From contig CAJVPI010000115.1 of NCBI GenBank assembly GCA_910592345.1, positions 1 through 52,479 of the forward strand: a stretch of DNA of 52,479 bases, read 5' to 3'. Source of the DNA: Paraglomus brasilianum. Lineage: Eukaryota. Every line of letters begins with the position of its first letter. Position 1 is the stretch's first letter. Below are positions 1-47,249 of the stretch, piece by piece. A program made the position numbers and the translations under genes. The notes under the pieces were generated by a model, which saw only the letters and a list, made by a program, of their open reading frames with translations, did not search any database and was not told where the DNA came from.

Positions 1-69
1 GGAAAATTTAAGGAGTTATTATTATGTACGTTTAGATGATACAACCGGTAGGATACTTTTGCACGTTAC

Positions 70-386
70 TGTAAAACAGTTCGAAAGATGATGAGCTGGG
101 CGCATGCTAGGTTTAAGAATCGATTGCTATCTAAAGCGGAAGAATTTGGTAAAATCGTAATAACATCTATATCTGAAGCATATACGAGTAAAACATGCAG
201 TCGTTGCGGATTTATTAGGAGGAATTTGGGTGGGAATAAAGTATTTGGGTGCGATGGGTGTGGACTTCAGATTAATAGAGAGCCCGGGGAGTTTTTCTCT
301 TGAAGTTTGCGTTCTTTTATTGTCTACACCTACGATTGAACGCTAAAGGTGTACCCCGGGCATTGCTTGATAGTTATGTAACATAA
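70..386 (+). pseudogene. Fanzor2/IS607-TnpB-like RNA-guided nuclease, disrupted C-terminal fragment
   Basis: KTVRKMMSWAHARF, RuvC-II SEAYTSKTC and zinc ribbon CSRC...CDGC are present. RuvC-III is broken after INR by a frameshifting deletion. ARGVFL and RALLDSYVT* continue in another frame, separated by a 57-bp insert (300-356). Confidence 0.85.
304..355 (-). mobile_element. Micro-insertion family copy 1 (longest, 52 bp), inserted in the Fanzor remnant
   Basis: agtttgcgttcttttattgt core plus a hairpin extension. Right flank ccgggcattgcttga (356-370); the left flank retains only cttga (299-303). Confidence 0.7.
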
Positions 387-572
387 TTATGCCAATTGAT
401 TGATGCACTTACGCAATGAATTTGATGAACACTTGCCGCAGTTGGTTTCACCAAGGTCCGACACAAAATTTCATGACGTTGTCAACATTCCGTAACCTTT
501 ACCTTCAAACACGCCACTGAAACTTTGACACTCATTTATCGCCGATTCTTCTATCTAACCATAAATCTTCTA

Positions 573-1755: not shown

Positions 1756-4516
1756 CTATTTCAATGTCAAAGTTTTATTACTACCAAATCGTCGTAAAAT
1801 GTTTTCAAGTTTCAAAGTTAGCATCCAATCACCCGGGCTACGCCTTTTTTTACGCTTTACATGACAATCCTTCAGCTCATAAAACTTCTGCGCGCATGCC
1901 CTATCACTCCTCCCGGGAATAGTCTTAGCAATGGTTGCCCATTTTAACCCATGTTTTTCAATCCCCTCGAGCAACAGCTTCAACTCATCCATACCCCACG
2001 ACCCCTTCTTCAACCGAGGGTCAAGTGAAAACGACCATCGATGTCTACACTGGAACCTAGTCCTGCTGCCAATAGTATAAGCTATCTTTTGCCACATTCC
2101 AGGAGAACCCTTATATTTTTCGACGCCCTTTATCAACAACTCGTTCTCTTCTTGCGTCCAACGGCCAAGCGTCCTCTCCGAGAACGTCTCGTATGTCAGG
2201 CGATGCCATTTATCAAATAACTGCTTACGCCCTCGTGTAGGAAAATACCTCTGTACTATTAAAGACCAATTAATACCACCATTAGGACCACGTTCCGTGA
2301 CTTCAACAGCTTTTCGCAGAAGAGCAAGTTCGTATTGCGAGAATGGTTTACTTTTGCTGACAGGATTAAGCACTTCGTGCCAGCGATTTTTACATTGAAA
2401 TACAGTACGGCCTGGCAGACGTTGGGCAATAGTTGCCCAATCTATAGACGGATTACCGGAGAGTAAATTTTTCAGTATCTCGTCTTCAGCAACAGTCCAA
2501 GAAGACGGAGCGAAGCGGACACGATCCCATTGCGCGTGGCATTGAGATGGACTTCTTTCCTTGAAGGCAGCGGATATTTTTTCCCAATCTATGATTTTCC
2601 CCCTATACGTCTCTGCCATGGTACATAGCGTGTTTAGCTCTTCCTGTGACCAGTAAGACCGCTTGTTGTAGTACGTCTTTCCTCCCAAGTGGGAATTGTA
2701 TCCGATCACACGATCAGTCATCATAAACCTTCCTAACTCTCGTAAGTTGTTGGACATCGATTCGGAAGCATCAAGTCTCACCAACTTGGCATCACTCAAG
2801 CTTTTATAAAATCTCATACAATAGTTCTTGCAATCGTATGCCGATCTACGTGGCATTCCTTTTGTTACTTCATTCCAATCATCTCCATGATCGGCCACTC
2901 TTGTCCATAACACTTTTTGCTCCCTTGCGCTCCACTGAAGATCGTTCTTAGACGACGAATTATACGACAAGGTTAACCATCTAAAGAGACAGTCGATATC
3001 AGTTCTTCCAGTCAGTCCAGCAACAACAAGTTGCCAATTCATTCCGTATTTAGCAATTTGACGGAGCAGAATCTTATCTTCTTCTGATGTCCATTTGCGT
3101 CTTGCCGTATTGCGAGTGGAATTAGAAAAGTATCGATGTCTCACTTGGTATGTTTCAGCATTAGTTAGCTTGCTGGCAATAAGAGTCCATTTGTAACCGT
3201 GCAACATTACTTGCTCTCTTATGAAATCGTCTTCTTCTTTTGTCCATTGGCGAGGTTTGTGACGTGTCTTTTCATTCTTTCTACCACATATGCTTTTTAT
3301 TGCATCGAGTGGTACCGCAGGTACTTCTTTTGATATTTTCCCCAGATTATCGGCACCGTTTTGAATAATGCTGTTTATTACATCATTGAATTGTTCAAGT
3401 GAGAGGTCCTCGTTTATTAACAGAGGCTGAATGCGATTAAACCATCGAAAACGGACGGCCAAATGTGTTCTATGAGGGAAATACTCATCAGAAATCTCCC
3501 TCCACTTCCGACCGCGTTTTCGTATTACCTCAACTAAGATTTTGTCTTCCTCAATAGTCCAGCATCTGCTCTTAAATCTAGTCGCGTCTTTTCCAGCTTT
3601 AGAAGAAAACTTCTTGGTTTCTTCCTTATCACTTAGCATGACAGCATGTCTAGAACGCATGGATTTCCATTTCCGCAAGTACGCAGAGGTGGGGCTTTCT
3701 CGAGTCTTTCCTTGTTCAAGTGATAAATACTCATAGATCAACAGCGGTCGAATGCGATTAAACCATCGGTAACGAACAGCCACGTGCGTTCTACAGGGAA
3801 TATAGTCGTTTGAAATCTGCTTCCACTTCCTCCCATGCTTTTGCATTGCTTCTATTAATATTTTATCTTCCTCAGCAGTCCAATATCTACTTGATCTACT
3901 TATTCCTTGGGGAGTTTCGATCGGAAAGTTTATGAAGTCTGTTTCCGATCCTAACAAGTCCTTATCCTCAAATTGCAATGCTTTTAACTTTTCCAAATAC
4001 GGAGCAGGGCCATTTTCCCGAATATCATTCGCTATTTTATAGAATTGTTCGAGTGATACATTTTCTTTTATCAATTGGGGTTGAATATGATTAAACCATC
4101 GAAAGCGAATCCCCGAATATGTTCTATGAGGAATATGCTCCTCCGAAATTTGTTTCCACTCCCGACCTCGCATCCGTGCCGCTTCTATTAAAAGTTTATC
4201 TTCCTCGTCAGTCCAGTACTTATTTGTCAATCTAGCCAACTCTTTACTGTCTTTGGGAGGATAACCTTTAATCTCTAAAACGTTATCTTCAGGATGCAGA
4301 TATCTCCATCTCTGTAAACACATTCCAGAAGTACTTTCCGGAATACCTTCTGCTACTTTATCGAACGTTTTTGGTGATTTCCCATGAATTGCCACAAGTT
4401 GCTCCAGTATTGAGTCATTTTCTGGTTTCCATACAGTATCACATACACTTGATAAAAATCTCTTGCATCTTATTTGTCTCGGAAGCTGTAAGGCGCTTTT
4501 CAGCAAGCGATAACAT
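1756..4516 (-). CDS. Multi-repeat Myb/SANT protein (about 12 repeats), single long ORF; start uncertain
   Basis: 916-aa ORF with repeated WTxEED...W...RT...RW units. The ORF opens at TTG 4506; the nearest ATG (4516) is one base out of frame. Confidence 0.85.
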
Positions 4517-5594: not shown

Positions 5595-6028
5595 TTGACA
5601 AGGAGAAAAAACGAATGGCGAACTTGCGTCGAAGTACGGAATCAAGGAAAAAACCGACCCTGCAGTCTTAATGAAGTTTTGCGTTCTTTATTTGTTCCTG
5701 CAGTCTTAATGGCAACGAATTCTAATGAATATACTGCTCAGTTGAAGCGTAATCGCCCTCTCAAAATACAAGATGTTGAACGTGCCTTGTGGAGTTGGGT
5801 CAAAGGTGCGTTATCCTCCAGTCTTGATATATGCTGACGACATTTATTGCAAGTCATTAGTGAACTTATAGCATAATTGTATAAAATAAATTTCGTGCTA
5901 TAATGGAATTGCACGTGCAATCATTAAGAAGTCCATTATAAGAAACCATACACGTTATTATGGACTCGTGTTATAATGGTGCTCATGGGCTATGCCCAAC
6001 TTTCTATTATAACGAGCTTTGACTGTTA
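5595..6028 (+). mobile_element. Decayed pogo/Tc5 transposon (CENP-B-type HTH remnant plus right terminal repeat)
   Basis: QLKRNRPLKIQDVERALWSWVKGALSSSLDI resembles the Tc5 DNA-binding domain. Repeated (g)ttataa(c/t)g subterminal motifs precede the end acgagctttgactgtta. Confidence 0.65.
5659..5711 (-). mobile_element. Micro-insertion family copy 2 with 15-bp TSD
   Basis: cctgcagtcttaatg (5659-5673) + aagttttgcgttctttatttgtt (5674-5696) + cctgcagtcttaatg (5697-5711). Confidence 0.9.
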
Positions 6029-7152: not shown

Positions 7153-8008
7153 TTTTCTATCAACAATAATAAATAATATCAAAAGAGAATTGTAAGTATT
7201 GCATACCCATTTCATACTAAGTGTGAACTCGAAACCTCATTTAATACTAAGTTACAATTGTTTCATAACCAGTTGTAATCTCATAATCGTCTTGTAATCG
7301 GTTGTAATTGCTGGTTTAACCACTCAACAAACTTTCTTTTCTTGCCTTGCGCTAAGTAAAGAGATAAAGTTGTATCAAGTAGGCTTGATAATCGCGGGCG
7401 CGTCCACGTATAAGCGCAAAAAAACGTAAACAGCCATAATAATAATAACGTTTAATTTTCCAAATATTTGTAAGTGTAAAATATAATGCAATTGTTTAAG
7501 TGGCTGGTGCTAAAAGCCTTTTTTTTCAAATTAAAGAAAAAATCAATTGTTATCAGATAGACACCACAAAGTCAATCCAATAACTATAATTCAATCGGAA
7601 AATAATACGCCACTTTTATCTACGTTTTTCAGTAATGTTGAAATAATTATTACTATACACATATTTCAAATAATAATTTGTGAAATTTACTTTTCGCGGA
7701 TAATCGCAGGCTCCCTTCATTGGACACTCAAATGGCTTCTCCCCATAAATAGAAATATTATGGACTGTACGACGTGTCGGTTTGTGCGACCTGGCAGGTA
7801 AATTCCTGATAATTTTGCGGGGACTATATAAAGTGACACTAACGGGTTTGCGGTTCAAAATTCTCCCATTGTTGAAATATGGTACTTGACTATTAAGGAA
7901 TGATGCATACAGACATTTAAATTTGTGTAAGCGCATGTCAATATATCATAAATAAAAAAAATAAAATTTCCAATTCCAAGAGTCATTTTAATTTGTTTTT
8001 CTTAAAAA

Positions 8009-10004
8009 ATGTTCGACAATCCAGATAATGTAGAAGAGAGGCTCCATGTAGAAGAAGAGGCGAAGGTACATAAATCGCATATGTTTAAGACTTGACGATA
8101 ATATGATAGGATATTTCAAACAATGTTACGTATTTTTTAAACGTATTAGCATTTTCGCAAAGTTCTCCAAACGTTTTCGCTCTACAAAACATCGGCTCTG
8201 ATGGCCAACAATCGTAGACGAAAGGACTATCATGCGCTTACAGAGAGACATAAGAATCTGATTCCTAATTATCTTAATCATTTGAATACAATCGACCGTG
8301 CCATAGGAAAAAACTATGCAGTAGTCAAGCAGATTATGACTAATGGACAGATGTTTTCGGATGGAAAAGTATGCCGTTTGAGATCTGGCTGATTCTTCTC
8401 CCCATACAAAGATTGACTAATATCCGTTTGCTAGGATAGCTCCCTTTTGCACACGCATACTAGCGAGCAGGATGAAAACACACAAGATGAAATAACCGAA
8501 TATGACTTCGACAAACTGCGTAGTACGATCAAGCAGTTTGTAAGAGACTGGTCTATTGAGGTATGGCGTGGTATGTTGAAATAAATATTGGCTGCTTTAT
8601 CGCTGTCTCTCAATCCAATTTTTGTATGTCAATTACTTGTGTACTTGATAGGGAAAACCCGAACGGGACGTAACTTATCAACCTGTATTACAAGAATTAC
8701 TTGAATACTACAAAGAGGTACCTTTATCAGAGAGGTAACGTTCTTATCACTATACAATATTTATATTACAAAGAGGTACCTTTATCAGAGAGGTAACGTT
8801 CTTATCACTATACAATATTTGTATTACTGTATAACACTAACTCTAAATTGTATTCCACTAGGGCTAAGATAAATGTATTGACACCGGGAGCTGGCTTGGG
8901 TAGATTAGCCTTTGACATTGCCAAGTCAGGTTGGTAATAGTAGTTCTTTGTTTACATATATCGATGAATAACAATTCCCACATTTTCTTTTGCTATGTAT
9001 AGGATTTAGCTGTCAAGGTAAATTAAACTTGCTATTACACAGGAAAGCAGACAGATGTGTTCTAATCAATATCTAATTTTAGGAAATGAATTTTCATTCT
9101 ACATGGTAATTTTTGATGACAATTCTTATAAATGAACGTCTGACTACCGTTATGACTGATGATATGATGGTTTTAGCTCTTGGCTTCTCATTTTATATTG
9201 AACAGGTAAAGGAGGGACTTGATTGATAAGCAGTGTAAATCGTATTGCTCACATGATGTTTTACAGGATCGAACGCATCCATCAGTATGAAATCTACCCG
9301 TTCATTCATTCTTTCTCAAATATTCCTTCTTTTGAGGAACAACTGAAGCCAATAAGTATACCCGATGTTTTGCCGAGTGAAATACCACAAGGAATAGACT
9401 TTTCAATGGTAGCTGGTGATTTTGTGGAAATATATGGAGACGACAGCCATAAGGGTAATATCAGTATCACACTACTAATTGTTATTATATAGAGCTAAAG
9501 ATTTTTCTTTTTTTTTTTTTGCAGGGACATGGAACTGTGTCATTACATGTTTCTTTATCGACACTGCAAAGAATATTATGGAGTATATTGAGATAATTTA
9601 TAACATTTTGAAGCCAGGCGGATTGTGGATAAACATTGGTAAGCGAGATACATATGCATCTGTTAAGTACAATAATGTTGGGGTTATATCCAATTGCTCG
9701 TCATTTGCAGGTCCATTACTGTATCACTATGAAAATATGCCTGGAGAAATGTCTATTGAATTGAGCTTAGAAGAAGTCAAAAACCTTGTCAGGAAGATTG
9801 GTTTTGTCATTAAGGTGATTAATCTTAACGGTTCATTCATGATATCAGTTTATTCATTATTTAGTAAGGTCGTGACTCCAGGTCGGTAATTCTCCTGTCT
9901 TCTATACACAGAAAGAGAAAACGATTCAGACTACGTATACAGCCAACCCAAATGGAATGCTGAAATATGTGTATGATTGTGCATTCTGGACATGCGTGAA
10001 GTAA
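8009..10004 (+). CDS. CARNMT1: Carnosine N-methyltransferase (N2227-like), many introns
   Basis: [71 protein letters not shown]; ends FWTCVK*. Confidence 0.93.
8709..8824 (+). repeat. 58-bp tandem duplication spanning an exon end and 5' splice site
   Basis: tacaaagaggtacctttatcagagaggtaacgttcttatcactatacaatatttrtat occurs twice (8709-8766, 8767-8824) with one mismatch. Confidence 0.95.
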
Positions 10005-18720: not shown

Positions 18721-18768
18721 TGTTCACATAACTGGAGTTTTGCGTTCCTTTATTGTTCACATATCTGG
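18721..18768 (-). mobile_element. Micro-insertion family copy 3 with 15-bp TSD
   Basis: tgttcacataactgg (18721-18735) + agttttgcgttcctttat (18736-18753) + tgttcacatatctgg (18754-18768; one mismatch). Confidence 0.88.
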
Positions 18769-26696: not shown

Positions 26697-29600
26697 ATGT
26701 TCCAACCACTTTCTCAAACACACGAGTCTTCTCCGCATTGTCAGACTGGGTTAGAGTTAACTGAATCCGACCTTGCGAATGGATGGAATCGACAGAATAC
26801 AAGCATTGCGCCCGACTTTTTGGAGAGATTTTACAAAAATTCGCGGTTACATCATTTGTCGACATGGCGGGCGGAGTTGAAACAAATGATAGCGAACAAT
26901 CAATCGACTTTTCGAGAAAGAAGAACAAAAAGAACAGATGATGAGGATCAAATTGTGATGTACGTATATTTGGCTGAAGAAACGTTGCACGAGTTTTTCA
27001 TTACAAGTAATGACTGACGACTTCATGATTGGTGTTTGGAAAATGACCCGTGATGAAGGCACGTTGATTTCGATGCATTCTTCGCCTCGGTCGGTTTGCT
27101 AGACCGTCCGCATTTAATAAATAGGCCGGTAACGTGAAATCTCATACCATTTATGATACGTAATATTCTTCAATAATTTTGAATTACTTATTATCGAAAT
27201 ACCAAAAGGTGGGTGTCTGTCATGCGAAAGGTACCTCAACTAAGATAGATTCCTCCAGCGAAATAGCCTCGGTTAATTATATTGCGCGGTCATATGGTAT
27301 CTCGAATGGGATGCAGTAAGTCTCTCAAAATTCAAATTATTGATGACTTTGATCACGATCATTTGTGAAATAATTACCCAAAATTTTTCACTTACAAGCG
27401 TTGGAGACGCGCAGAGATTATGTCCAAACTTGATTACGATTCCGTATGAATTTGAGAAGTATCACGCCGTGAGCCTTAGGTTCTATGAGATTCTAATAAA
27501 GTATGCCACAGAATTGCAGGCTCTCAGCATAGATGAGGCTTTGATAGAAGTCGGACGCACAGTCAGGGAGGACTATGGCGGAGATGCAGAGGAATTTGCC
27601 AGGCAGCTCAGAAAAGAGATTAAGAATGAGACTCGATGCGATGTAAGCATGGGTATTTCAAAGAATATCTTATTGGCAAGGTAAGTTTCGATGAGTTGTT
27701 TGCTAATCATGATTAACTTTTTGACGTCGAATTTGTATACATACGTGTTGACAGGATGGCCACAACCTATGCTAAACCACGCGGCCAATTTTATATAAAA
27801 GATGATTATATTGACGAATTTCTAGAGAATCAAAATGTTGACAGCCTACCGGGTGTAGGCTCGTCAATGGCGCAAAGACTAGGAGAAAAGGTAATTCGAC
27901 TGTTTATCATATTTCATGCTTATTCGCACATCTCACGTTAGAATCAACGCTTTTCTGTAGGGAGTAATCACAATAGCAGATCTTAAAAATTTAACTATGG
28001 GTGAATTGCAGGCAGAATTTGGACCCAAGGCCGGCAAAACGCTATACAATTTTGCCAGAGGAATAGATAAAAGGTCAATACAAGTAGATAGCCCTAGAAA
28101 AAGCGTTTCAGCCGAAGTTGCCTGGGGCGTGAGATTTGAAAATGATGAGCAGGTCGAGGTAAATTAATAAAAGCGATAGTGTAGATTTGCATGGTCTCGC
28201 GAATATTGTATTTTTACTAAATTTAAATTTGTTCACCAAATTTTAGAAATTTCTCCATGAACTATGTGAAGAAGCGGTTAAGCGGCTTAAGGACGTGAAG
28301 CTAAAAACTAAATCAGTAATGTTAAAGGTGATAAAAATTAATCCAATACAGCACGAGTAATCGTTTTGATAGATTTCTGTTTACCAAGTCTATAATTATA
28401 CCAGATCAAATTACGCAAGCCCGAAGCAGGAGCGCCACCAAAGTTACTTGGTTGTGGAGACTGTGATAATTTTTCGAAATCAAAAACTTTTGCCTATTAT
28501 ACAGATAGTTTTGAGCTTATCTGGAACGAATGTTTGGCATTACTAAAACAGTTTGGGTGCAGCTGTGTGGAAATCAGAGGTCGGTCTTGTCCGGTATGCC
28601 ATCTTAACTATATCAAAAAATCCCTGTGTACTAAGGTTGTTGCTGTTAATTAGGTATTGGTATACAATTACAAAAGCTTAATACCGAAACAGGAAAGGGG
28701 CACAAAAGTCTTTCAGGTGAGGACTTTTAGAATATTAGTGGTAATATCAAATCGCTTTTTTATAACATTACACAAATTTTGTCTGTAGACTATTATAAAT
28801 CAGCGGCTGATGCGGAAGGGAGAGAAGAGCAGCCAGCTGATTCAAATGATCAAAGCCAACAGTGCTATGATGAAAGCTTGATAGGCGATGAAGAGAGTCG
28901 CATGGACATCATTAGTAGCTCTCCAGATTTATCATCACCCTTTAATAATGGCGTTTGTGAGCCTTCCAGGAATTGTGAGCGCAATCAAGAAAGTATAGAA
29001 CGTAATGTGGATGAGAATCGATCACATACGTTACAACAACGACATCCGAGCTATAGCGAACCAGGGAATTCTGTTCCAATGTTTGTTCCTGTGAAAATGG
29101 AATTTGATGATGATAACATGATGCTTGGTGGAGAGTCGTCATGTTCACAAATGAGAAATGAAAGCGAGATGCTCAAGATGGAGGAAGGTAATGAACCTAT
29201 AGAGGTGGGGCCCTGCGTGCTTGGCTATTAGGAGAGGCAATATATGAATAGGATAAACATGTTCTAACAAAGATATGCCATGACGTCCCAACTAATACTC
29301 AATTTCTCCATATGATAAGACACTGAAATAGAACGCAACTCAATCATAGACAGGCCAAATGAGAGAGACTTACCGTGTCAAGAAACATGGAACGAGCTAC
29401 CCCACTCCCGCCTAATTACAGCAAATTACAAAGTATCTAAAAAGACTGTCAGCAAGAACAACCGTAGTAGGAAGAATACATTGCAGAAACCTCCGAGGCG
29501 GAAGAGTAAAATCGAGGACGAGAGCCGAGGGCTGAATTTGGATAAGAATGGTGAATTTGATCGGGATGTTTTTGATGCTCTCCCCAAAGGTAATTGGACC

Positions 29601-35312: not shown

Positions 35313-38300
35313 TCACCAATCTAACTTACTATCTCCACATCCACCACATGCAACTTCCTGACCAACTCTTTCAATAATGTTGATATTTTTCTCCTTCCTA
35401 ACATGATGCTTTTTAACCATCCACTTACTTGTACCAAGTAAGCCGTCCAACTCTTCCGTCGACGGAAGCAATAACCAAACGTGCTCACCCTCGATCTTTA
35501 TATCGAAAGTCATCAATTTCAAGTCTGGACCATCAGTCAGACAATCTCCAGTCTCGAGAGCATAGTTCTTCTTATGCATGGGACAACTCACTTTCAAAAC
35601 TCCATTCTCGTCATCCCCAACAATCCCCTGTGACAAGACAAATGCTCGCTTGTGTGGGCACATGTTTTGAGTTGCATACCACTTTGTCCTATTATGACTA
35701 TTAAAGATGGCTATTTGCACGTCTCCGTATTTAACAACATCTCCGGCATCTTCGGGGAACGAGTTAACGTGAGCAATCTTTATCCATGCCTTTCCTCCGT
35801 CAGGTGCACTTTCTGCGGCTATCCGTTCGGATTCTTCTGTTTTAGGGAATTCCTTGGGCCAATCAGCAGGACGGTTTTGACCGCGCTCGTCGACAAATTC
35901 AATAAGAGACTGGTTTTCGTCTGTATTGGTAAACTGTCGAAACTCGGCTCGTCGTTTAGGATCATGAACTACCGTCGCCCATTCACATTGGTATGTGTTG
36001 ATAAGACGCGCCATGTCCTCTTCTAGTTCTGCACAGATGCCCAGGTAATCATCTATTACGACTCTTCTTAAATACTAAATTTATGTAATGTGATTTCCGA
36101 ATGTTATTAGCAAATGTTGTTAGCAATACAAACGATTACAGCTTATCACGCATTATTTTTACAACATACATCAATCCCGCCTTCCATTTTCTCTAGCCAT
36201 CGTGCGGTACGCGTGAGTCGATCGGCCGTGTGTATGTAGTACATCAAAAATCTGTCCAAATACTTTATACACAATTCTTCTGAAATGTCTCTAGCCAAAA
36301 GTACGGCATGTTTAGGCTTTGCTCCACCATTTCCACAAACGTAGAGATTAAATCCCTTGTCTGTTGCAATCATGCCAAAGTCTTTCCCCTGTGCCTCGGC
36401 ACATTCTCGAATGCACCCAGAAACACCTCCTTTAAGTTTATGCGGTGACCTTATTCCCTTGTACCTGTTTTCGACCTTAATGGCAAACCCGACCGAATCC
36501 CCGATTCCATATCGGCACCAAGTCGATCCGACACACGATTTAACTGTTCGTAATGCCTTGCCATAAGCGTGACCAGATTCGAATCCAGAGTCAACCAGTT
36601 GTTCCCAGATATCCGGCAGGTCTTGTTTAGCAGCCCCGAAGAGGTCGACACGTTGTCCGCCAGTAATTTTGGTGTACAGATTGTATTTCTTGGCCACTTC
36701 TCCGAGAACAATGAGTTTCTCTGGTGTAATCTCTCCACCCGGCACGCGTGGTATTACCGAATAACTTCCTCCACGTTGAATATTAGCCAGGAATCGATCG
36801 TTCGTATCTTGTAAATTGGCATGATCGAGTATATGATCGTTCCATAAACTAGCCAATATGGATGCGATGGCTGGTTTGCATACTTCGCATCCATACGAGC
36901 CCTTTTTCCCAGCGGTATCAATAATCTCCCTAAAGGTTTTCAATTGCTTAATCTTGATAATCTGGAACAGTTCGACGCGCGTATAATTAAAGTGTGGACA
37001 GAGATTTTGGGTAACTTTGTGGCCGCATGCTTTCATTTCTGCCGCAAAAATTTCTTGGACATCTGGGAGACATCCGCCACAGCCGGTACCTGCTTTTGTG
37101 CACGATTTGACTTCACCTATGGAGCGGCAGCTGCCTGTTCGAACCGCTTCACGTATTTCGCCTTTTGAGATGTTGTTGCACGAACTTTAGTGAGTAATGC
37201 AATTTGGGAAGGAAGACTTCAGTTAGTCACGTGATTGATATTAAATCATCTTCCGCAAGTCAACAAACATATGGATCAGCCATCATCATACTTACCAAAC
37301 CTGAGCCTCATCTGGCAACTCGTCTGCCCCAGGTGCCTGCCCCGACTTGACTCCCAATATTAACTCTCCAGGAAGCATTGTCAATGGTTTCTTACTCTTC
37401 CACATAGCATGCAATTTGGCGTAATCGTCTGTATCTCCAACCATAATACCGCCCAACAGATGCTTTCCATCCTTACTAAACAAGTAGTTTTTATACACTG
37501 CACCAAATGGATCTTTATAAGTCAACGGCATAGCCACGTCCTCTTTCGCGAAATAATCACCAAAACTAGCAACATGCACACCCAAGAGTTTCAACTTGGA
37601 TGACAAGTCACCACCCTTGAACTTTCTATCTCTTGCCTGAGATGTCAAGTTAGCCGCTACGACATCCGCCATGTCATAACCAGGTGCTACCAATCCATAC
37701 ACGACTCCACGGTGTAAAGCGACTTCGCCTATAGCATAGACATGGGGATCGTTTGTCTGCAGCCGATCGTCAACTTGAATACCGCCACGTGGATGAGTAT
37801 CGATATTAGAAACTCGCGCGATATTGTCACGTGGTCGTATGCCAGCAGCAATGACAATGACTTGGAATTCATCAAAGTGATCGTTCTCGTATGTTATGCC
37901 AGTAACCTTGCCAGTTTCGTCGATTTCGATTTTTCGTGGGCTATTCTGGAGGACCTTTTTGATACCTATTTTCTCGATTTCGCGTTCGAGCATTAGACCA
38001 CCCTCATGATCTATTTGCCGCGATAACAAGTGAGGATTTCGTTCTATGATTGTTACTTCTAACCCCAGATCCATCAATGCTTTGGCGGCTTCAAGTCCCA
38101 GTAACCCTCCTCCGATGACTGCACCCTTTTTAGCATTTTTACACCAGCTAATAATATTGTCTAGATCATCAATGGTTCTGTAAACGAAACAACCTTTGGC
38201 TTCTTTGTTTGGAATGGGCGGGACAAATGGATCGGAGCCTGTGGCTATGATACACTTGTCATACTGGATCTCTCTACCGGATGATGAGATGACTGTTTTC

Positions 38301-38810
38301 GTAGACGTGGAGATGGAAGATGCCAGTTCTGATGTGTAGAGCGTGATTGAGTTGTTGGAATACCATTCGGGAGGCTGGAGAAGGAGACGAGTGGAAGAGC
38401 GGTGAGAGAAGTATTGGGTCAGCCCTACCCTGTTGTATGCGACTTTGTGGCAAAGGAAGGGGGTGGTTGATTATTAATCACATTTTATGAATCGTGCATA
38501 AAACCGCGTTCTTTTTTAAATATTGCTCGTTTCAATGTTAGTAATTACCTAAACTTTCTTCGCAGAAACTCACAACTTTGTATCTCTTTTTCGTATCATA
38601 CTTTAACAGCTTCTCAATAAACGACAGTCCCACCATTCCCAATCCAATCACGACAACTGTCTCTTTGTTCGTTAGTCCATTCGTAACTCCGTTTGTTAGT
38701 CCATTCGTAACTCCGTTTGTTAGTCCATCCGTAACTCCGTTTGTTAGTCCATTCGTAACTCCATTCGTAACTCCATTTGTTAGTCCATTCGTCAATCCAT
38801 TCGTTTCCAT
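35313..38810 (-). CDS. niiA: Assimilatory NAD(P)H nitrite reductase (NirB-like + C-terminal Rieske NirD-like), 3 introns
   Basis: GLGMVG FAD motif, GGGLLGLEAA, AGTGCGGC, KSCVGSTWCRYG, GVSGCIRECAEA, Rieske CPHK...CPMH. Confidence 0.97.
38667..38804 (-). repeat. 12-bp coding minisatellite encoding (TNG[L/V])x11
   Basis: METNGLTNGLTNGVTNGV... at the nitrite reductase N-terminus. Confidence 0.95.
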
Positions 38811-39850
38811 GTTGTCTGAGAGGTCGAATGCAATAATTCCGTTATATGAATGCTAGCACTAACAAACTGATTAGGATTGTGTATGATGCGATTGATTATA
38901 TGAGAGAATGATGAGTGGTGATGGATATGTGATAAATTATATCAATCACCACACAGCATATTACGTGCTGAAAGGGGGGGGGTACCTTTCAATACATACA
39001 GTATATACAATGTATTTAGTACCAGTGTAATGGTCATTGTTTACTTACTTACTTACACATGCCCATAACATGTGGCGCTCGTAAGCGCTTTGTTTACCAA
39101 ACAGCTATCTTTCAAACTAAGGTCTCACAACACTTAATTTTTAAGTATACTGATAAGCTTGTCCAATGTAGAAAAACTGCAATGTACACGCTTTATTTGT
39201 TACACAGTAACATTGATAACCATAACTTTGTTACACGGTATCATTAGTAACGATTAATTTGTTATCGGAACAAGTGATCTGCATGAGACAGCTGCATGAC
39301 AAGGGTAGAACAGGAAGAGGTTGCAGCATCCTCTACATTCTTGTCTTGTGATACTGACGGGTAGATTCTACGCTGAGGGCGTAAGTTCTTTGGAAGAGTC
39401 ACACAATAAAGATATACATCCGATAGGTTGATAGGTTGACCAAATACCCTAAAACGCAATGATAGTCTCTAAGCAATTTATTTCTCGTCTTCTTGTATTA
39501 TTGGTTTTATTGGTTCCAACCAACCCTTGGCGTATCTCATTCAAAGTGCAGATCATTGCCAAGTCTTATATCGTTATCGGATATTAATTATTCCAAGCAC
39601 TATGAAAAATTTGCTTGTAGTAAGTGATTAGAGCACATGTCAAAAGACTATGATTTGTTAGCATAATAAGAACGACCACGCTGATCCGTTGTGTTTTGAA
39701 TGTTCTTCATTTTATAATGGAAGCAATTGCAACGAATCAAGCCTTCAAACCATATATAGTTACACTAACGATTATATTAATATGCCCCTGTGCGACTGTT
39801 GTACAAATTGTTCTTTTTTGTTTCAAACTAAAACTATAATAAATGGTTCT

Positions 39851-39953
39851 CTTATCTGAAGATAAGAACACCCCAATTAGAAAAACTTGTTAGCGGAGGA
39901 TCTTCAACTTATCTATATCTGCAGATAGGATCGATATTAGCTTATCTATGATA
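39851..39953. promoter_or_regulatory. Cluster of GATA sites (AreA/Nit2-type) upstream of nitrite reductase
   Basis: Inverted pair cttatc-tgaa-gataag plus six more GATA/TATC cores in about 100 bp. Confidence 0.5.
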
Positions 39954-41505
39954 ATCGCAAGCGGGTTTTGGCGATCAATTTAGAAACATCCTTATTTATC
40001 GAAAATAAGTCGGGACAGAAAAAAAATTAAAGTTTGGTAACAAGCATTAAATTACCCTTAATATTTTCCGGAATAAATCGGCGATTCATGTATCCAAACG
40101 GGACGTTACGGAACGATAATGCACTATTTGCAACTTCATACGAACTAAGCAAAAAGATCTTAGGTAGAATATTGATCAAGTAAATTATAAGGGCAAATTC
40201 GCTCGGCGTTTTGACAATTTATTCGGTTGTAAAATTAGCATTAGTGATCTAGGGTACCAGAACCTTAATTAAAAAATAAAATAAAATATTTTCTCACAAT
40301 GCTCCGTTTCTGACGTACAATACAAAGTTTATGTTTAATTTGGTTCCGTCTGAGCTTCATAAATAACTCTGTTCGTATACCAGGACTTCTGTGAGTAAGG
40401 TCGTGTTACATCATAATTTTAATCGGGGCTGCAGTTCTCTGCCCGTACGACTTTGGGTAGCAATTTTCAGACCCAATGGACTCGTTGGGACGTACTGCGT
40501 GCGACTAGTAAAGGACAATGAATATCTTAACAAATTTACTGACTATTGTAATTTGTCAACTATTGGCCATACATTTTTAATTCCTATCGTTTATCAGTGT
40601 GTGTTACTTTCATGAGCACGATAAGGAAATGTCAAAGATATGTGTGGCTGCATATGCCTGTTTGTGGCTGTCAATACACGCTCGTATATCCAGAGTCTGT
40701 CTCCGATTTGTTCAATTTTTTGGTCTCTCCCAAAACGGAAATTCACGTACCGATATGTCAAGCAGTAACATGTGTTGTGTCGTCACATTTCGTAGTAGCA
40801 CAACTTTGGTGTTTCTCAACAATAATGCAATTTCGTTAGACCAAAATCTTAATCTGTTAATCGCCTTGACTCTTTAAGCATTTGTTTGCACAAAATAACA
40901 TATATATCCAAGTTTATTTAGCAGTGATAGAAACCGGGAACGCTTCCCTATCTCGAAGAGGCTTGCGACAATACATTGGCCCTTGAAAATTTTAATTAAT
41001 TTAGCTATCAGCTTTCCAATTCCGCCCCTCTCAGGTCTGTAAATTTGTGTCCATAACAGATAAATGCACTTCATCGTCAACCTATGTCCCTTCCCCATTT
41101 TCCCTTATCTCCCTCCAATGACATTAAGTCTACTCGATGATCGATTGCGTGCAGATCCTAATTGCCTAATAAATTCTCTGAATTGCAGATCTTCTTCTTA
41201 CGTACCGATAAAAGCGATAAATAACTTTAATTAGAATTAATTTAGTAACTAGAAACTTAATGAAACTCAATATGGTAATATTAACCCATTCATTTTTGAG
41301 CATGTGTTTATTTATATTGTGTATATTAATACTTAGTATAAAATTTTTTTACACTTTTACAATCGATTGATTAGACTAAACTAGAAGCAATCGCTGTATT
41401 TTCGAATAGTCATAATCCAATGCAATGATCCACAGAAATTACACCTTTCAATGACAGTATATACGATCTAGTTAGATATTATATGAATACAAGAAGACAG
41501 ATCGT

Positions 41506-43052
41506 CTATGACTTTCTAAATGAAGCCAATCTCATTCCATCAACTTTCAATGTGAAGGCGGTAAATGCAACCGTCATAACAACACATCCAATAACCATAA
41601 ATGCAGTTGGGGTATCTTCCGAGTATTTCTTAAAGATTATAGTAAATATTAAACCACCAATGTTGCCACCCGCTCCAACTAGACCAGAGATAGCACCAGA
41701 AACTGCTGGATTGACGAAGGGAACTATACCAAATGATGAACCACAGCCAGCCTATTGATATTAAGATAATGTTTGTAAGAAATCGATTGTATTGTAGCAA
41801 GAAAAGCAAAGAGTCTATACATCATATCAATGCAAAGCAATCGCTTCTTACTCACCTGAACAAAGTAGCTGAAAATAACCAACACGATAATAGCTCCAGT
41901 CAAGGTAGTAACAGCAAATTTAAAGAGAAACAGGAATAATCCTCCAAAGAACATAATCAAAAGCTGCACCAATAATCTTCCACGTATTCCCAGACGAGAA
42001 CTTGCAAAGTCAGATAGGAATCCCCCTGTAGCACGTGAGAAGAGATTCATCAATCCAAATAGAGATCCGATCAAACCCGCGGTCTTTTGGGTCAAGTGGA
42101 AGTGGTTGAAAAGAAAATCTGCAAGAACGTTGTCCACCGCTAGTTCTACGCCGAATGTGCAGGAATACATGACCATTAAAACCCACACATTGGGATTAGA
42201 TAGTGCAATGTAGAAAGCCCTAAGTTTAGAAGTAGGTGGGGCAGTGGCGGTACTTTGTTTGTTTGCCGGTTCAATCGTAGTTGCCTTCTTTTCCTTATCA
42301 ACATCTCCAGCATCGTGTACTTCAACTATTTTCTCTTCTTCTACGAGTTTTCCCCTGTTCTTCCATTTTCCTTCTGGACAATCATCCGTAAACAACAGAC
42401 AAGCTATACCAACGACAATCAAGAGACAGGCTGGTACAACTAGCGTCAGTCTCCAAGCGTCATGGGTGGACCTTCCTCCATCAACAAACCATTGCATGAT
42501 TACTGGCATGAGAAGGTACGTAATACCAGCTCCCATGTTACCCCATCCTCCAGCAATTGCGTTAGCACTGCCGACAACATTAGAGTCGAACATCTGCATT
42601 GTCCAGAATTGGCATGGAACAAATGTCGCTCCAAGAATACCGACGAAAAACCTTGCAATCATCAATCCCTCACGATCGTTTGCCAACCCGGTTAATCCGA
42701 CCGGAATAGAACCCACCAGAAGTAACGTTGCCATAACCTTTCTTGGACCGATAGCGTCACATAATGGACCAACAAGTATACGGAACGCAATGGTAGAGGA
42801 GACGGAAATAATGTTTGAATCATTGAATTGGAAAGGGTTTAACTTCAGGTCCTTTTTAATTGTTGGAGCTAAAGGAGCGACAGCAAACCACCCAGTGAAC
42901 GCGGTAAGAAATCCAAGCCATGCAAAGTGAAATGATCGCATGTGAGGGCGAGAGAATTTGATCAAATTGAGACGCTCCGCCTTTTGCGTGGCTGGGTTGG
43001 TCGGAAGTGGGTTTCTTGGGTTCCCAAACAGTTTTCCAAGTGCCTTTGACAT
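41506..43052 (-). CDS. nrtA: High-affinity nitrate transporter NRT2 (NNP family, MFS), 1 intron
   Basis: RPHMRSFHFAW, nitrate signature AGGWGNMG, FSRATGG, second signature SGLVGAGGNIGG; stop at 41506. Confidence 0.96.
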
Positions 43053-44219
43053 TTTTTCTTATTTTGTTGGTCCAGAAAAAGGAAAGGGTAGAGATGATTG
43101 GGGAAGAGAAGTAAAAAAAGAAAAGGTAATGATGAAGAACTTAAAAAGAAGTAATGATGTTTCGTATATTTTTATTCATAAATTCAATCGATTATTACAA
43201 GATTTTTTTTTATTGGATAAATCTTATAATATTCTCATGCGGTTTCTTATCGAACTATTGAAGCGTCAAAGAGCAGATGGAGTTCGAAAGCCGGCGGCTA
43301 ACGGGAGGAAATGGGTTGGACGCGACTTTAAAAAGAATTTACTTCTTGTGTGTAAGTATTCGGTTATACAACGGATTTACAGTATTAAATCAAGTGACTA
43401 TGTATTATCCTTATTATTATTTGTTTTGATGATATTTCTTGTTCTACACCGGATACTGACAGGACAATTGCCTATCAACATTTCACAGCAGCTGCAGTGC
43501 AATGTCATATCCATCATATGAGTGTTATTGGTTCTGTTTCATATGCTTGTCACACCGACGCCTATCAGACGAAGATCACTCAACTTCGTTTTCGTCAATT
43601 ATTACCATAAAAATTCTTATTGATATTAAACTAGTCGAAACACCGTTAAACTTATCAAATCATCGTGAATACGACTTTCTTATGGTACGTTATAATTTAT
43701 TACGACACGCGGATGTACGCCCAACAGTGTTACAATTCAGTTCTGCACTACACCCCCTCTTATCTCTCACGAGGTCTTTTTAATGCACCTGCATTCTTTA
43801 TTAAGTTGCAAAAAAAAAAAGAGAGAGAAGAAATCCATTCTGCAGGCAGTTTCCTTATTCGTTTTGTTTATGTTGTAATGCATTCAATCAAATTGGACCG
43901 TGTAATACATATAAAGATCACCCGCGTATATATTATGAATTCTAAAATCCACAATCACTCATTACGTGATGCACCGTTCATTCTGTCACAAAACGCCAAG
44001 ATAAACCGATTGGGGTGGTTTCCTAAATGAACAGAATAAATGAGATAAGCTAAATCCAGAATGGTGCATGATAGAACAGCTATCAAAGACTAATCAATGT
44101 CGATTTGGGAACTTTCAATCTGAAAGAACAATGTTCTATTAAATCCGCGTACCCGCTTATCAATCGCCAATCAACTTACTGAGTGTATTACAATCCAGTT
44201 TGCTAATTGTTGACCCTTG

Positions 44220-44272
44220 CCTTGTACTCTCCATAACTAATAAAGGAACGCAAAACTCCTTGTACTCTCCAT
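44220..44272 (+). mobile_element. Micro-insertion family copy 4 with perfect 15-bp TSD
   Basis: ccttgtactctccat (44220-44234) + aactaataaaggaacgcaaaact (44235-44257) + ccttgtactctccat (44258-44272). Confidence 0.92.
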
Positions 44273-44553
44273 TTCCACCCGGACATTAAACTTTTCACTT
44301 GTTGTCGATCCCGTCTGATCATTTCATATCATCCTTGCTCTATCTTCGTTATCAACTCACGTGTCAATACATTTAAATAGATTACATCCAATCTTGATTT
44401 CAGTCTTGCGAAAGCCCGCAAACTGGAATACCCTTGAATTATTTATTGCCATAGTCTTTTTGTAACGTAAATTATCTTGTCTTGCATTCTACAATATCTC
44501 TGCTACCAATATATCATATCATACACACACAACATTTGTAACTCTCGGAGCAA

Positions 44554-47249
44554 ATGGCAACAATTTCAACGCAACCGGCTGTCCCTTCTCCTCTATCTGC
44601 TAAACCAAACTTTCAACCGCAACATTATACAACTCCCTTATCTTCCCTACCATCAAAGAATCCCATATATGCTCGCTCAGTACCCATAACTGCGATCGAT
44701 CCTCGTGATGCCAATACTCCCGACAAATGGATTCCTCGACATCCTAATCTCGTCCGTCTTACCGGCAAGCACCCATTCAACTGCGAACCACCATTAACTC
44801 AATTAATGGATCAGGGTTTTCTTACTCCAAATTCACTACATTACGTACGCAATCACGGGCCAGTACCCAAGTTACAATGGGAGACCCATCGCTTGGTTGT
44901 TGAAGGGTAAGTATGAGAAGAGAATGTCTAGAAAAATATATCCGCGGGTACCCGTCACGTCGTTTATTCTAATCACGTGATCACTTCTTCTCTAGTTTTG
45001 TTAAAAAGACGCTAACTTTCTCTATGGACGAAATCACTGCAATGCCATCTCGCACAATTCCCGTAACGCTCGTATGCGCCGGAAACCGTCGGAAAGAACA
45101 AAACAGGGTCAAACAATCGATCGGTTTCAACTGGGGCGCAGCTGCAGTTTCAACGGCAATCTGGAAGGGTGTTCCTCTCCGGCACATTCTCAAACTTGCT
45201 GGTGTTTCGCTCGACGACGTCACTGCAGACTCCCCACGTTATGTCTGCTTCCACGGAGTCGATATTCTACCCAACGGATACTATGGAACTAGCTTGACGT
45301 TAGAATGGGCCATGAATGATGCCATGGACGTGATTTTAGCGTATGAGATGAATGGAGAAGAATTGTTACCTGATCATGGATACCCTTTGCGAGTCGTCAT
45401 ACCTGGAGCTATTGGTGGGCGGATGATTAAATGGTTGGGCAAAATCACGATTACCGATTGCGAGTCAGACAGTTATTATCATTACCACGATAACAGAGTA
45501 CTACCACCAAACGTCGATAACGAACGAGCAAACAAAGAAAACTGGTGGTATATCCCAGATTACATTATAAACGAACTGAACATCAACTCTGCAATTAGCA
45601 GTCCAGCCCATAATGAAAAAATTTACCTCTCATCCTTTGTCAACACATCCTCCTACAAACTCCGTGGGTACGCATATTCCGGCGGCGGTCGCAAAGTCAC
45701 CCGTGTAGAAATTTCGCTCGACCAAGGACAAACCTGGTTACTCACCTCTCTTACTCATCCCGAATTAACCCACCCCATGGTTCTCGCTCGTGGTCACAAC
45801 CCTGTTCGCAAACACTGGTGTTGGTGTTTTTGGGAGTTGGGCATTGACTTTATGTCATTGCTCAAATGTCAAGAGATATGGGTCAGAGCATGGGACGCTA
45901 CGCAGAATACTCAGCCGAGAGATTTGACATGGAACGTCATGGGAATGATGAATAACTGTTATTTCAGAGTCAAAGTGCACACAAAAATAGAGAATAGGGA
46001 TGTAGTGGTCTCGTTTGAGCATCCCACACTGCCAGGCAATCAGGTTGGCGGATGGATGAATAGAGGAGAGGATGCGGATACCAAAGAAGTAGAGAAAGTA
46101 AGCGTTATCAACGATACTAATGGAACCAATCAAGCGGGAAAAAACATTACAATGAGTGAAGTTGCAAAGCACGATAACGAAAGGGACTGTTGGATTGCTG
46201 TCGGTGGTAAAGTCTACGATTGCACCAAATTCTTGGATCAGCATCCTGGTGGAGCAGACAGTATTATTATAAACGCTGGGACCGATTGTACAGAAGAGTT
46301 TGATGCAATACATTCCAAAAAGGCGAGAAACATGCTATCAGACTACTATATTGGAAACCTAGAAAACGGAAATAACGTTCCATCCACAACCCCACTTGTT
46401 ACACCAAAGCCTGCTCCATTCATCCAGCCGTCTATTTCGGGCTCGACTGCTCTAAACCCGAGGCTCTGGCTTCCCTGTCCTCTGGTCTTTAAAACTCACC
46501 TCTCACATGACACCCGAATCTTTCGCTTTGCTCTGCCGTCAAAAGATCAAAAGCTTGGACTTCCGTCTGGAAATCACATATTCATTCGTGGATCGGTCGA
46601 TGGCAAAAATGTCATTCGAGCTTACACGCCAATTACGCGTCCTGACGACTGTCCTGGATATTTTGAACTATTGATAAAAGTATACTTTGCTAACGTCCAT
46701 CCTAGGTTTCCTAATGGTGGATTAATGACACAGCATTTGGAAAGGATGAAAATAGGAGAGACGATCGACATCAAAGGTCCGCTCGGTCAATATGTATACG
46801 TTGGTGGTGGAAAATACGAAACAAAAGAGGGCACCAGAGTATCTCGGAAGTCATGTAAAAAGATTGGAATGATAGCTGGTGGCTCTGGCATTACTCCTAT
46901 TTATCAAGTAATACACGCTATCATCAAAAACAAGGATGACAACACTCAAGTATCGCTGCTGTATGCAAACCGAACTGAGCAAGATATCCTGCTTCGAGAT
47001 GAATTGGATGACATCGCTAAAAAGCATAGTAATATCAAGGTGTGGTACACGGTAGATGTACCGCCTAGTGATTGGAAGTATAGCTCTGGGTATATAAGTG
47101 AGGATATGATACGTGACAATTTGTTTGCACCCGAGGATGGCGGACAAAGTATTGTGCTTATGTGTGGCCCGCCTCCAATGATTCAACGATGTTGTATTCC
47201 TAATCTGATAAAGATTGGATTCAAAGAGGATGAATATTTTGACTTTTGA
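44554..47249 (+). CDS. niaD: Assimilatory nitrate reductase (Moco, cytochrome b5 and FAD/NAD(P)H domains), 1 intron 44907-44995
   Basis: RLTGKHPFNCEP, LVCAGNRRKEQN, WNVMGMMNN, HPGG, RAYTP, AGGSGITP, CGPPPM. Confidence 0.98.

What the first reader, a model, noticed from the sequence alone, without database searches (positions are those of the whole stretch)
304..355. Longest copy can fold as an H-type pseudoknot, which may explain the ~22-nt size of the others
Seen, minus strand: UACACCU (353-347) pairs with AGGUGUA (331-325). Loop GCGUUC (343-338) pairs with downstream GAACGC (314-309) across the A-rich linker GACAAUAAAA, followed by the tail AAACU. The first stem begins 21 nt from the fixed end, and the short copies are 18-23 nt long. 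Inference: reverse transcriptase starts at the 3' end and usually stalls at stem 1. Established: 3' pseudoknots occur in viral tRNA-like ends and in TnpB/Fanzor guide scaffolds just before the guide. An RT recognition signal and a guide-RNA-like scaffold are both candidates. This rests on one copy.
Basis: partly seen in the sequence, partly recalled or inferred. Interest (0 to 1): 0.8.

Follow-up and report, generated by a model that had tools for sequence, protein, structure and literature searches.

The report
Structured LINE tail, fixed-length micro-insertions
The 52-base stretch is the tail end of a LINE jumping gene of a mycorrhizal fungus, pasted in many places as pieces of about 22, 52 or 67 bases whose start points fall on the edges of predicted RNA helices, which likely shows the folded RNA deciding where these insertions are cut short.

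Summary
The pairings described at 304-355 are in the sequence. The stretch is not a free RNA or a Fanzor guide: it is the last 52 nt of an L1-clade LINE of Paraglomus, inserted antisense into a dead Fanzor gene. A metagenome scan gave 22 more long copies; one (L029) runs 1,138 nt upstream into an ORF2 C-terminus between 16-bp target-site duplications, and the window's own sample holds that LINE at about 98% identity. There is no poly(A); 17 of 18 target duplications begin CC(A/T). Stem 1 has one compensatory pair; the loop-tail helix shows no independent covariation (chance 0.08 given stem 1). In the full LINE an upstream strand pairs with the A-rich linker and competes with the pseudoknot. 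Insert lengths are quantised: about 22 nt (3' foot of stem 1), 50-53 nt (5' edge of stem 1; 15 of 21 copies of 41 nt or more) and about 67 nt (5' edge of the upstream helix). An RT stall at stem 1 can explain only the first class; pre-trimmed RNA templates fit the others better but are untested. New variant of a known kind.

The parts
304..355 (-). 52-nt insertion = 3' terminus of an L1-clade LINE (51 templated bases plus one extra G at the 5' junction)
   Evidence: Identical but for one missing A to L036 copies and same family as the ends of L028/L029; absent from other Fanzor copies
347..353 (-). S1 5' strand
   Evidence: A-U to G-C two-sided change in 4 of 18 distinct rows
325..331 (-). S1 3' strand
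338..343 (-). S2 5' strand in the S1 loop (can instead close a 3-bp hairpin with a UUCAAU loop)
   Evidence: no independent covariation
309..314 (-). S2 3' strand
315..324 (-). A-rich linker; in the full LINE it pairs with an upstream U-rich strand (helix P0) that this copy lacks
   Evidence: on L028, L029, L035, L024
356..370 (.). Intact 15-bp target-site copy on the element's 5' side
   Evidence: matches the empty site in other Fanzor copies (tables 5c and 7)
299..303 (.). Remnant of the other target-site copy (10 of 15 bases deleted); duplication inferred from the empty site
94..385 (+). Host site: decayed multi-copy Fanzor/TnpB gene, C-terminal zinc-ribbon region, interrupted by the insertion
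   Evidence: PF07282, E 1.1e-14 on 94-300; frames; other copies
5675..5696 (-). 22-nt copy starting exactly at the 3' foot of S1; duplications 5659-5674 and 5697-5712
18736..18753 (-). 18-nt copy; duplications 18721-18735 and 18754-18768
44235..44257 (+). 23-nt copy; duplications 44220-44234 and 44258-44272

Best explanation
The 52-mer and the 18-23-nt copies are 5'-truncated insertions of the 3' terminus of a tailless L1-clade LINE of Paraglomus, likely made by target-primed reverse transcription, in which the predicted stem-1 hairpin would be the signal that ORF2p binds and the 52-nt and 67-nt classes likely come from RNA templates already trimmed to helix edges. Steps. (1) Shown: LINE terminus, 13-17-bp duplications, no poly(A), duplications starting CC(A/T). 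(2) Inferred: the APE endonuclease nicks so that the primer ends in TGG, which may pair with a CCA just past the element's last fixed base; a second nick about 15 bp away makes the duplication. (3) Predicted: in the full transcript the upstream U-rich strand pairs with the A-rich linker (P0) and stacks under S1; once that strand is lost the loop can pair with the tail, so the pseudoknot is the fold of the 52-nt fragment, not of the full RNA. (4) Inferred: 5'-to-3' decay or a cut halts at the base of P0 (67 nt) or of S1 (52 nt), ORF2p copies the remnant, runs off its 5' end and jumps to the target overhang; repeating this at one nick gives element-duplication-element arrays.
For: L029: ORF of 328 aa with zf-RVT (E 1.5e-7), 3' UTR, then the same 52 nt, all between perfect 16-bp repeats; L028 is a 193-196-nt truncation. 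The ORF is 50% identical to 1,115-1,119-aa APE-RT-zf-RVT proteins whose best solved relative is human L1 ORF2p (E 1e-93; R2 1e-44). The window's own sample holds the LINE: one contig matches L029 146-965 with 13 other letters and 13 gap bases. 14 CCA, 3 CCT, 1 TCA at the start of 18 duplicated sites against 2.3% background (two starts read by eye). Of 21 copies of 41 nt or more with a readable 5' side, 15 start 50-53 nt from the end, none at 41-49; best-case geometric truncation P 2e-9, or 6e-8 with the L036 array counted once. The 52-nt class occurs in every tail subfamily, so it recurs. Contigs of the window's sample and of two other studies start at the same edge with unlike flanks. S1: one two-sided change. 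P0: two-sided changes between subfamilies, fold -16 to -19 kcal/mol against about -11.7 for the pseudoknot and -10.4 for the plain hairpin. Arrays with the duplication between units at 5 of 20 loci and in the window's sample; L021 joins two different subfamilies. Human ORF2p is processive, jumps templates, and host cleavage is argued to cause truncation (PMC10830420, passages).
Against: No RNA data: no end, fold or trimming product was observed. S2 has no independent covariation and my search pattern fixed 10 of its 12 bases. The CCA lies in both target copies, so it cannot be assigned to the RNA. 18 of the 20 loci come from one assembly, and assemblies collapse long copies, so class frequencies are biased. 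Only 3 or 4 copies define the 67-nt class (L035's duplication is inferred from 3 bases; L026 and L033's second copy are rearranged; L024's start is unknown) and 4 the 22-nt class. P0's four two-sided changes rest on one B-type row and shrink to one or two events under a one-base register shift. The depth step at the S1 edge (21x and 47x) is not a copy number and can be inflated by contig fragmentation. A 44%-identical LINE (L038) shows no such pseudoknot behind its ORF, though its 3' end could not be fixed.
Confidence: 0.58

Rival explanations
1. Same LINE tail, but truncation happens during or after copying: the RT stops at the foot of S1 (22 nt), and the cDNA, which folds the same hairpins, is released or joined to the target just where it completes S1 (52 nt) or P0 (67 nt).
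For: All three classes lie at helix boundaries that exist equally in the cDNA; 3 of 3 short window copies start at or within 4 nt of the S1 foot; needs no special RNA processing.
Against: At -52 and -67 the RNA ahead of the enzyme is predicted unpaired; mixed-subfamily arrays (L021) are simpler if the RT runs off true 5' ends; L1 ORF2p is processive (PMC10830420, passages).
Confidence: 0.25
2. One endonuclease acts at the P0/S1 junction: a cut on the 5' strand leaves 52 nt and a cut on the 3' strand leaves 22 nt (an RNase III-type enzyme, or RNase P and RNase Z reading S1 plus the UUCAAU hairpin as a tRNA minihelix).
For: Positions -52 and -22 face each other across the base of S1; the predicted fold is 7 bp, 3-nt bulge, 3 bp and a T-loop-like hexaloop.
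Against: The T-like stem has 3 bp, not 5, and the loop 6 nt, not 7; ARAGORN finds nothing in 5 of 5 loci; the 67-nt class is unexplained; short copies spread over 18-32 nt. Minimal substrates of RNase P and Z are recalled, not checked.
Confidence: 0.1
3. The 52-mer is an independent SINE-like family transcribed from its own master copies, so the shared 5' end is inherited.
For: High abundance, sharp 5' end, a partial B-box-like word in the loop.
Against: 52-nt copies carry the diagnostic bases of each LINE subfamily, which would need several separate births at the same base; no tRNA, 5S or 7SL head.
Confidence: 0.05
4. The pseudoknot is a TnpB/Fanzor guide scaffold.
For: It lies at the 3' end of a Fanzor remnant; such RNAs have a pseudoknot next to the guide (PMC10711439, passages).
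Against: Antisense to the gene; absent from other Fanzor copies; found at 20 other loci as a LINE terminus with duplications.
Confidence: 0.01

Closest known systems
5'-truncated insertions of L1-clade (APE-RT-zf-RVT) non-LTR retrotransposons
   Same: ORF2 domain order, 13-17-bp duplications, fixed 3' end, 5' truncation, occasional extra bases at the 5' junction
   Different: No poly(A); target starts CC(A/T), not an A run (the L1 TTTT/AA target is recalled); lengths quantised at about 22, 52 and 67 nt; frequent arrays with the duplication between units
'Stringent' LINE 3' stem-loops: UnaL2, ZfL2-1/ZfL2-2 (PMC4176376) and the maize/sorghum ME1 L1 lineage hairpin (PMC3747384); passages read
   Same: Conserved terminal hairpin with compensatory stem changes and an invariant loop, kept across diverged subfamilies
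   Different: No terminal microsatellite or poly(A); a loop-tail helix and a competing upstream helix; ORF2p binding not tested here
Class 3 exoribonuclease-resistant RNAs of plant viruses (PMC11702639, one 10,000-character part and passages; PMC6299227, passages)
   Same: About 54 nt, stem-loop with a bulge on the 5' side, pseudoknot between apical loop and 3' end, open/closed switch, 5' end at a helix base
   Different: No AGY motif before the 3' pseudoknot strand, no L2B-type loop sequence, no Rfam match; Xrn1 resistance untested
Tailless retropseudogenes (PMC5322556, search listing only) and CCA-ended retroplasmid or viral tRNA-like ends (recalled)
   Same: No A tail; priming possibly by pairing of the target with the RNA's last bases
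   Different: Template is the LINE's own tail; no cloverleaf; CCA is 6 nt beyond S2 and cannot be assigned to the RNA

Membership tests
L1-clade non-LTR retrotransposon | ORF2 with APE endonuclease, RT and C-terminal zinc-binding region | tested here: met
   zf-RVT in L029 itself; APE and RT seen only in 45-50% identical full-length relatives, not in the exact element
L1-clade non-LTR retrotransposon | RT closer to L1 than to other clades | tested here: inconclusive
   Best solved relative human L1 ORF2p, E 1e-93 against 1e-44 for R2; no tree with named clade references was built, so L1 proper against Tx1 is open
L1-clade non-LTR retrotransposon | Variable target-site duplications of about 7-20 bp, fixed 3' end, 5' truncation | tested here: met
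L1-clade non-LTR retrotransposon | 3' poly(A) tail (usual, not universal) | tested here: not met
   0 of 23 long copies and 0 of 3 short window copies carry one
Stringent-type LINE 3' signal | Conserved terminal stem-loop with compensatory changes | tested here: met
   S1; terminal block kept by subfamilies whose UTRs differ
Stringent-type LINE 3' signal | Required for ORF2p binding and retrotransposition | not testable with these tools
   needs binding and transposition assays
H-type pseudoknot | Two interleaved helices with compatible loops | tested here: met
   7 bp and 6 bp, loops 3, 6 and 10 nt
H-type pseudoknot | Covariation in both helices | tested here: inconclusive
   S1 yes; S2 varies only at one CpG pair (G-C 11, G-U 3, A-U 2, unpaired 2 of 18) and was fixed by the search pattern
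Class 3 xrRNA | P1, 5' bulge, P2, loop-to-3'-end pseudoknot | tested here: met
   P0, GCAAG bulge, S1, S2 as predicted
Class 3 xrRNA | AGY motif before the 3' pseudoknot strand and conserved L2B loop | tested here: not met
   read by eye from alignment A3 against PMC11702639
Class 3 xrRNA | Blocks Xrn1 | not testable with these tools
   needs an in vitro assay
TnpB/Fanzor guide RNA | Part of the transposon's right end, same strand as the nuclease gene | tested here: not met
   antisense, and absent from other copies
tRNA-like 3' end | Cloverleaf or acceptor plus T arm ending in the RNA's own CCA | tested here: not met
   ARAGORN 0 genes in 5 of 5 loci; Rfam none
HDV-like ribozyme | P3/L3, P1.1 and catalytic C in a nested double pseudoknot (recalled) | tested here: not met
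   only 6 nt lie between S2 and the S1 3' strand; no Rfam match

The most novel reading that the evidence does not exclude
The LINE's 3' end is a two-state RNA switch: a long hairpin in the mRNA that refolds, as 5'-to-3' decay removes its outer strand, into an exonuclease-blocking pseudoknot. This would be an xrRNA-like element in a retrotransposon, yielding a 52-nt, ORF2p-bound, CCA-primed micro-retroposon that is written thousands of times into a 'repeat-poor' genome, often serially at one nick, and would show directly that RNA decay sets LINE 5' truncation points.
Probability: 0.25. Interest if true: 0.82.

Novelty: new variant of a known kind. Interest (0 to 1): 0.56.

Why it matters
Why LINE insertions are 5' truncated is stated to be poorly understood (PMC10830420, passage). 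Here truncation points pile up within a few bases at the edges of predicted helices in a 70-nt RNA, so RT stalling and prior RNA trimming make different, cheaply testable predictions. A tailless L1-clade element with a CC(A/T) target and a compact 3' signal is also an unusual RT substrate. Four copies in 52 kb suggest a few thousand per genome if the window is typical, in a genus reported as TE-poor (6.8-8.1%, PMC11952901, passage); inserts of this size are probably missed by repeat annotation (inference).

Tried and rejected
No whole genome is held, so no genome-wide count or truncation plot. Viral-contig scan with a looser pattern: 17 of 17 hits lack S1 and look like chance matches in other sequence. 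ORF2 searches of viral contigs: none confirmed. Prokaryote-genome scan: 1 locus (L038), a 44%-identical LINE with a frameshift in a chimeric-looking contig, without the motif. Rfam: nothing in the window at gathering score, one chance hit outside the element, nothing on the L029 tail. No RNA holder listed by the run search. I first read the flanking GCCCGGGG/CCCCGGGC as terminal inverted repeats of a small MITE (fold z -4.2); rejected, both are Fanzor coding sequence at the empty site. Telomerase-type repeats, HDV-like ribozyme and preQ1 resemblance were considered from memory and dropped. Ten literature searches listed no paper on this element, on Paraglomus LINE tails or on an xrRNA in a retrotransposon; the library lacks most subscription journals and Repbase was not available, so this does not show absence from print. 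Supplements of the AMF TE paper (its consensus library) were not opened and may hold this LINE.

Full report
Observation. The two helices, the linker and the tail are at the stated coordinates on the minus strand. ViennaRNA predicts S1 plus a 3-bp inner hairpin (-10.4 kcal/mol, z -1.8). The full H-type pattern arose in 5 of 20,000 shuffles of the 52-mer, but two chance patterns of that geometry exist elsewhere in the window, and given S1 a 6-bp loop-tail helix has probability 0.076. The three short copies (5675-5696 minus, 18736-18753 minus, 44235-44257 plus) each lie between 15-16-bp direct repeats; the same scan found none in 10 of 10 shuffled windows.

Setting. The window is a Paraglomus brasilianum contig (nitrate reductase 100% identical). 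Bases 94-300 encode a TnpB/Fanzor zinc ribbon. Contigs of the window's own sample and of two other studies show other Fanzor copies running through this site without the 52-mer, which fixes the insertion at 304-355, antisense to the gene, with an intact target copy at 356-370 and a mostly deleted one at 299-303. This removes the guide-RNA reading.

What it is. One scan of metagenome contigs, with a pattern that fixed most of S2 and the tail but left S1 free, gave 20 loci with 22 long copies, 18 loci from one assembly. L029 carries 1,138 nt between perfect 16-bp repeats: the end of an ORF with a zf-RVT domain, an AT-rich UTR and the same 52 nt. L028 is a 193-196-nt truncation. The ORF is 50% identical over 310 residues to 1,115-1,119-aa APE-RT-zf-RVT proteins; a profile of 13 such proteins matches human L1 ORF2p best. 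The window's own sample holds this LINE at about 98% identity, and further subfamilies that share only a short UTR block and the terminal block. So the finding is the 3' terminus of an L1-clade LINE. That the metagenome loci come from Paraglomus or a close relative is inferred from this identity.

Ends and target. No copy has a poly(A). Duplications are 13-17 bp. At 18 sites with a readable 5' copy (14 loci, 4 in the window), 14 begin CCA, 3 CCT and 1 TCA, against 2.3% CC(A/T) in the window (L026 and L027 read by eye). Bases upstream of the site are not conserved. Because CCA is in both target copies, it cannot be assigned to the RNA.

Structure. On 21 of the 23 long copies (L026 and the first L033 copy left out for internal duplications) S1 is 94% paired with one A-U to G-C change in 4 of 18 distinct rows; S2 is 98% paired but varies only at one CpG pair, in the manner of CpG decay, and the pattern fixed the rest. 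The rival inner hairpin is 91% paired. Copies that reach further show a new helix, P0: the U-rich strand 15 nt upstream of S1 pairs with the A-rich linker and with the first base of the S2 3' strand. Between subfamilies it shows four two-sided changes as aligned, from one B-type row, and one or two events under a shifted register. P0 plus S1 folds at -16 to -19 kcal/mol; a rough estimate for the pseudoknot with recalled loop penalties is -11.7. The pseudoknot is therefore predicted only once the P0 strand is gone, and then only narrowly over the plain hairpin; in L037 a nested fold scores better (-12.8 against -11.5).

Lengths. Of the 23 copies of 41 nt or more, 15 start 50-53 nt from the end between duplications (L037 read as 52 with one mismatch in its repeat; the window copy by its empty site), one more starts there without a findable duplication, two are cut by contig ends at -52 and -50, three include the P0 strand (two start at its edge, L024 unknown) and two are long. 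None starts at 41-49. Under the most favourable geometric truncation the chance of 15 of 21 in that 4-nt window is 2e-9, or 6e-8 with the L036 triple counted once. A rearranged second copy in L033 also starts at the P0 edge, -67. Shorter pieces are 18, 22, 23, about 22, about 28 and 32 nt. Loose ends in laid contigs cluster at the same S1 edge with unlike flanks. Summed depth rises 21-fold and 47-fold at that edge, but the tool warns that this is no copy number, and I give it little weight. Long copies are under-counted in assemblies; the gaps at 41-49 and 54-63 are not affected by that.

Arrays. Five of 20 loci hold two or three copies with the target repeat between them (L021, L023, L031, L033, L036), and the window's sample shows such a joint (table 5c). 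L021 joins two different subfamilies, L023 probably, L033 is unclear; L036 could be slippage. Copying the target overhang leaves the new strand ending as the first primer did, so a second short template can be taken at the same nick. Human ORF2p makes such template jumps (PMC10830420, passages).

Mechanism. The terminus most likely works like the stem-loop signals of stringent LINEs (PMC4176376, PMC3747384, passages). It does not fit the 52-nt and 67-nt classes, which begin at the 5' edges of S1 and P0. I favour templates trimmed to those edges before copying, with cDNA-hairpin-guided joining as the main rival and a single cut at the P0/S1 junction as a lesser one. The layout resembles class 3 xrRNAs (about 54 nt, loop-to-3'-end pseudoknot, stop at a helix base, refolding during decay; PMC11702639 and PMC6299227) but lacks their conserved motifs, so it may work like one and is not a member.

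Novelty. LINE tails with hairpins and very short truncations are known in kind. A tailless, CC(A/T)-targeting L1-clade element with three helix-bound length classes and serial arrays was not listed in ten searches of the held library. Two unchecked notes of this scan describe ultra-short A-tailed LINE ends with fixed starts in other eukaryotes; they are leads only. Papers on Paraglomus were seen as passages (PMC9453076, PMC11952901), the Fanzor paper as passages (PMC10711439). Verdict: real, explained in kind, with an open and testable mechanism; interest 0.56.

Noticed in passing
window 1-385: Decayed Fanzor/TnpB copy with stops and several 8-10-base deletions relative to other copies in the same sample, where the family is high-copy.
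   Followed up: partly
window 29307-29355: Possible old, degenerate short copy (about 17 nt) after a CCA-starting stretch that weakly repeats downstream; below the scan threshold.
   Followed up: partly
window 35313-47249: Nitrate assimilation cluster (nitrite reductase, MFS transporter, nitrate reductase); the 23-nt copy sits between the divergent transporter and reductase genes.
   Followed up: no
window 372-389 and L029:1113-1126: The same short palindrome-like AT-rich word follows the Fanzor stop region and lies in the conserved block of the LINE 3' UTR; may be chance.
   Followed up: no
L029:1085-1125: A block just after the ORF2 stop is conserved among LINE subfamilies whose ORFs and UTRs otherwise diverge; a second RNA signal is possible.
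   Followed up: no
window 7208-7252: A 15-nt unrelated insert between 15-bp near-identical repeats that also begin near a CA/CCA-like start; perhaps a product of another tiny template.
   Followed up: no
window 1756-4506: 916-aa ORF with 11 Myb repeats.
   Followed up: no
window 8705-8820 and 38630-38809: A 58-bp tandem duplication and a 12-bp minisatellite.
   Followed up: no
L038:1-4600: A eukaryotic-type LINE ORF2 at the end of a contig labelled as a bacterial genome, with an abrupt GC shift; likely a chimeric contig.
   Followed up: partly
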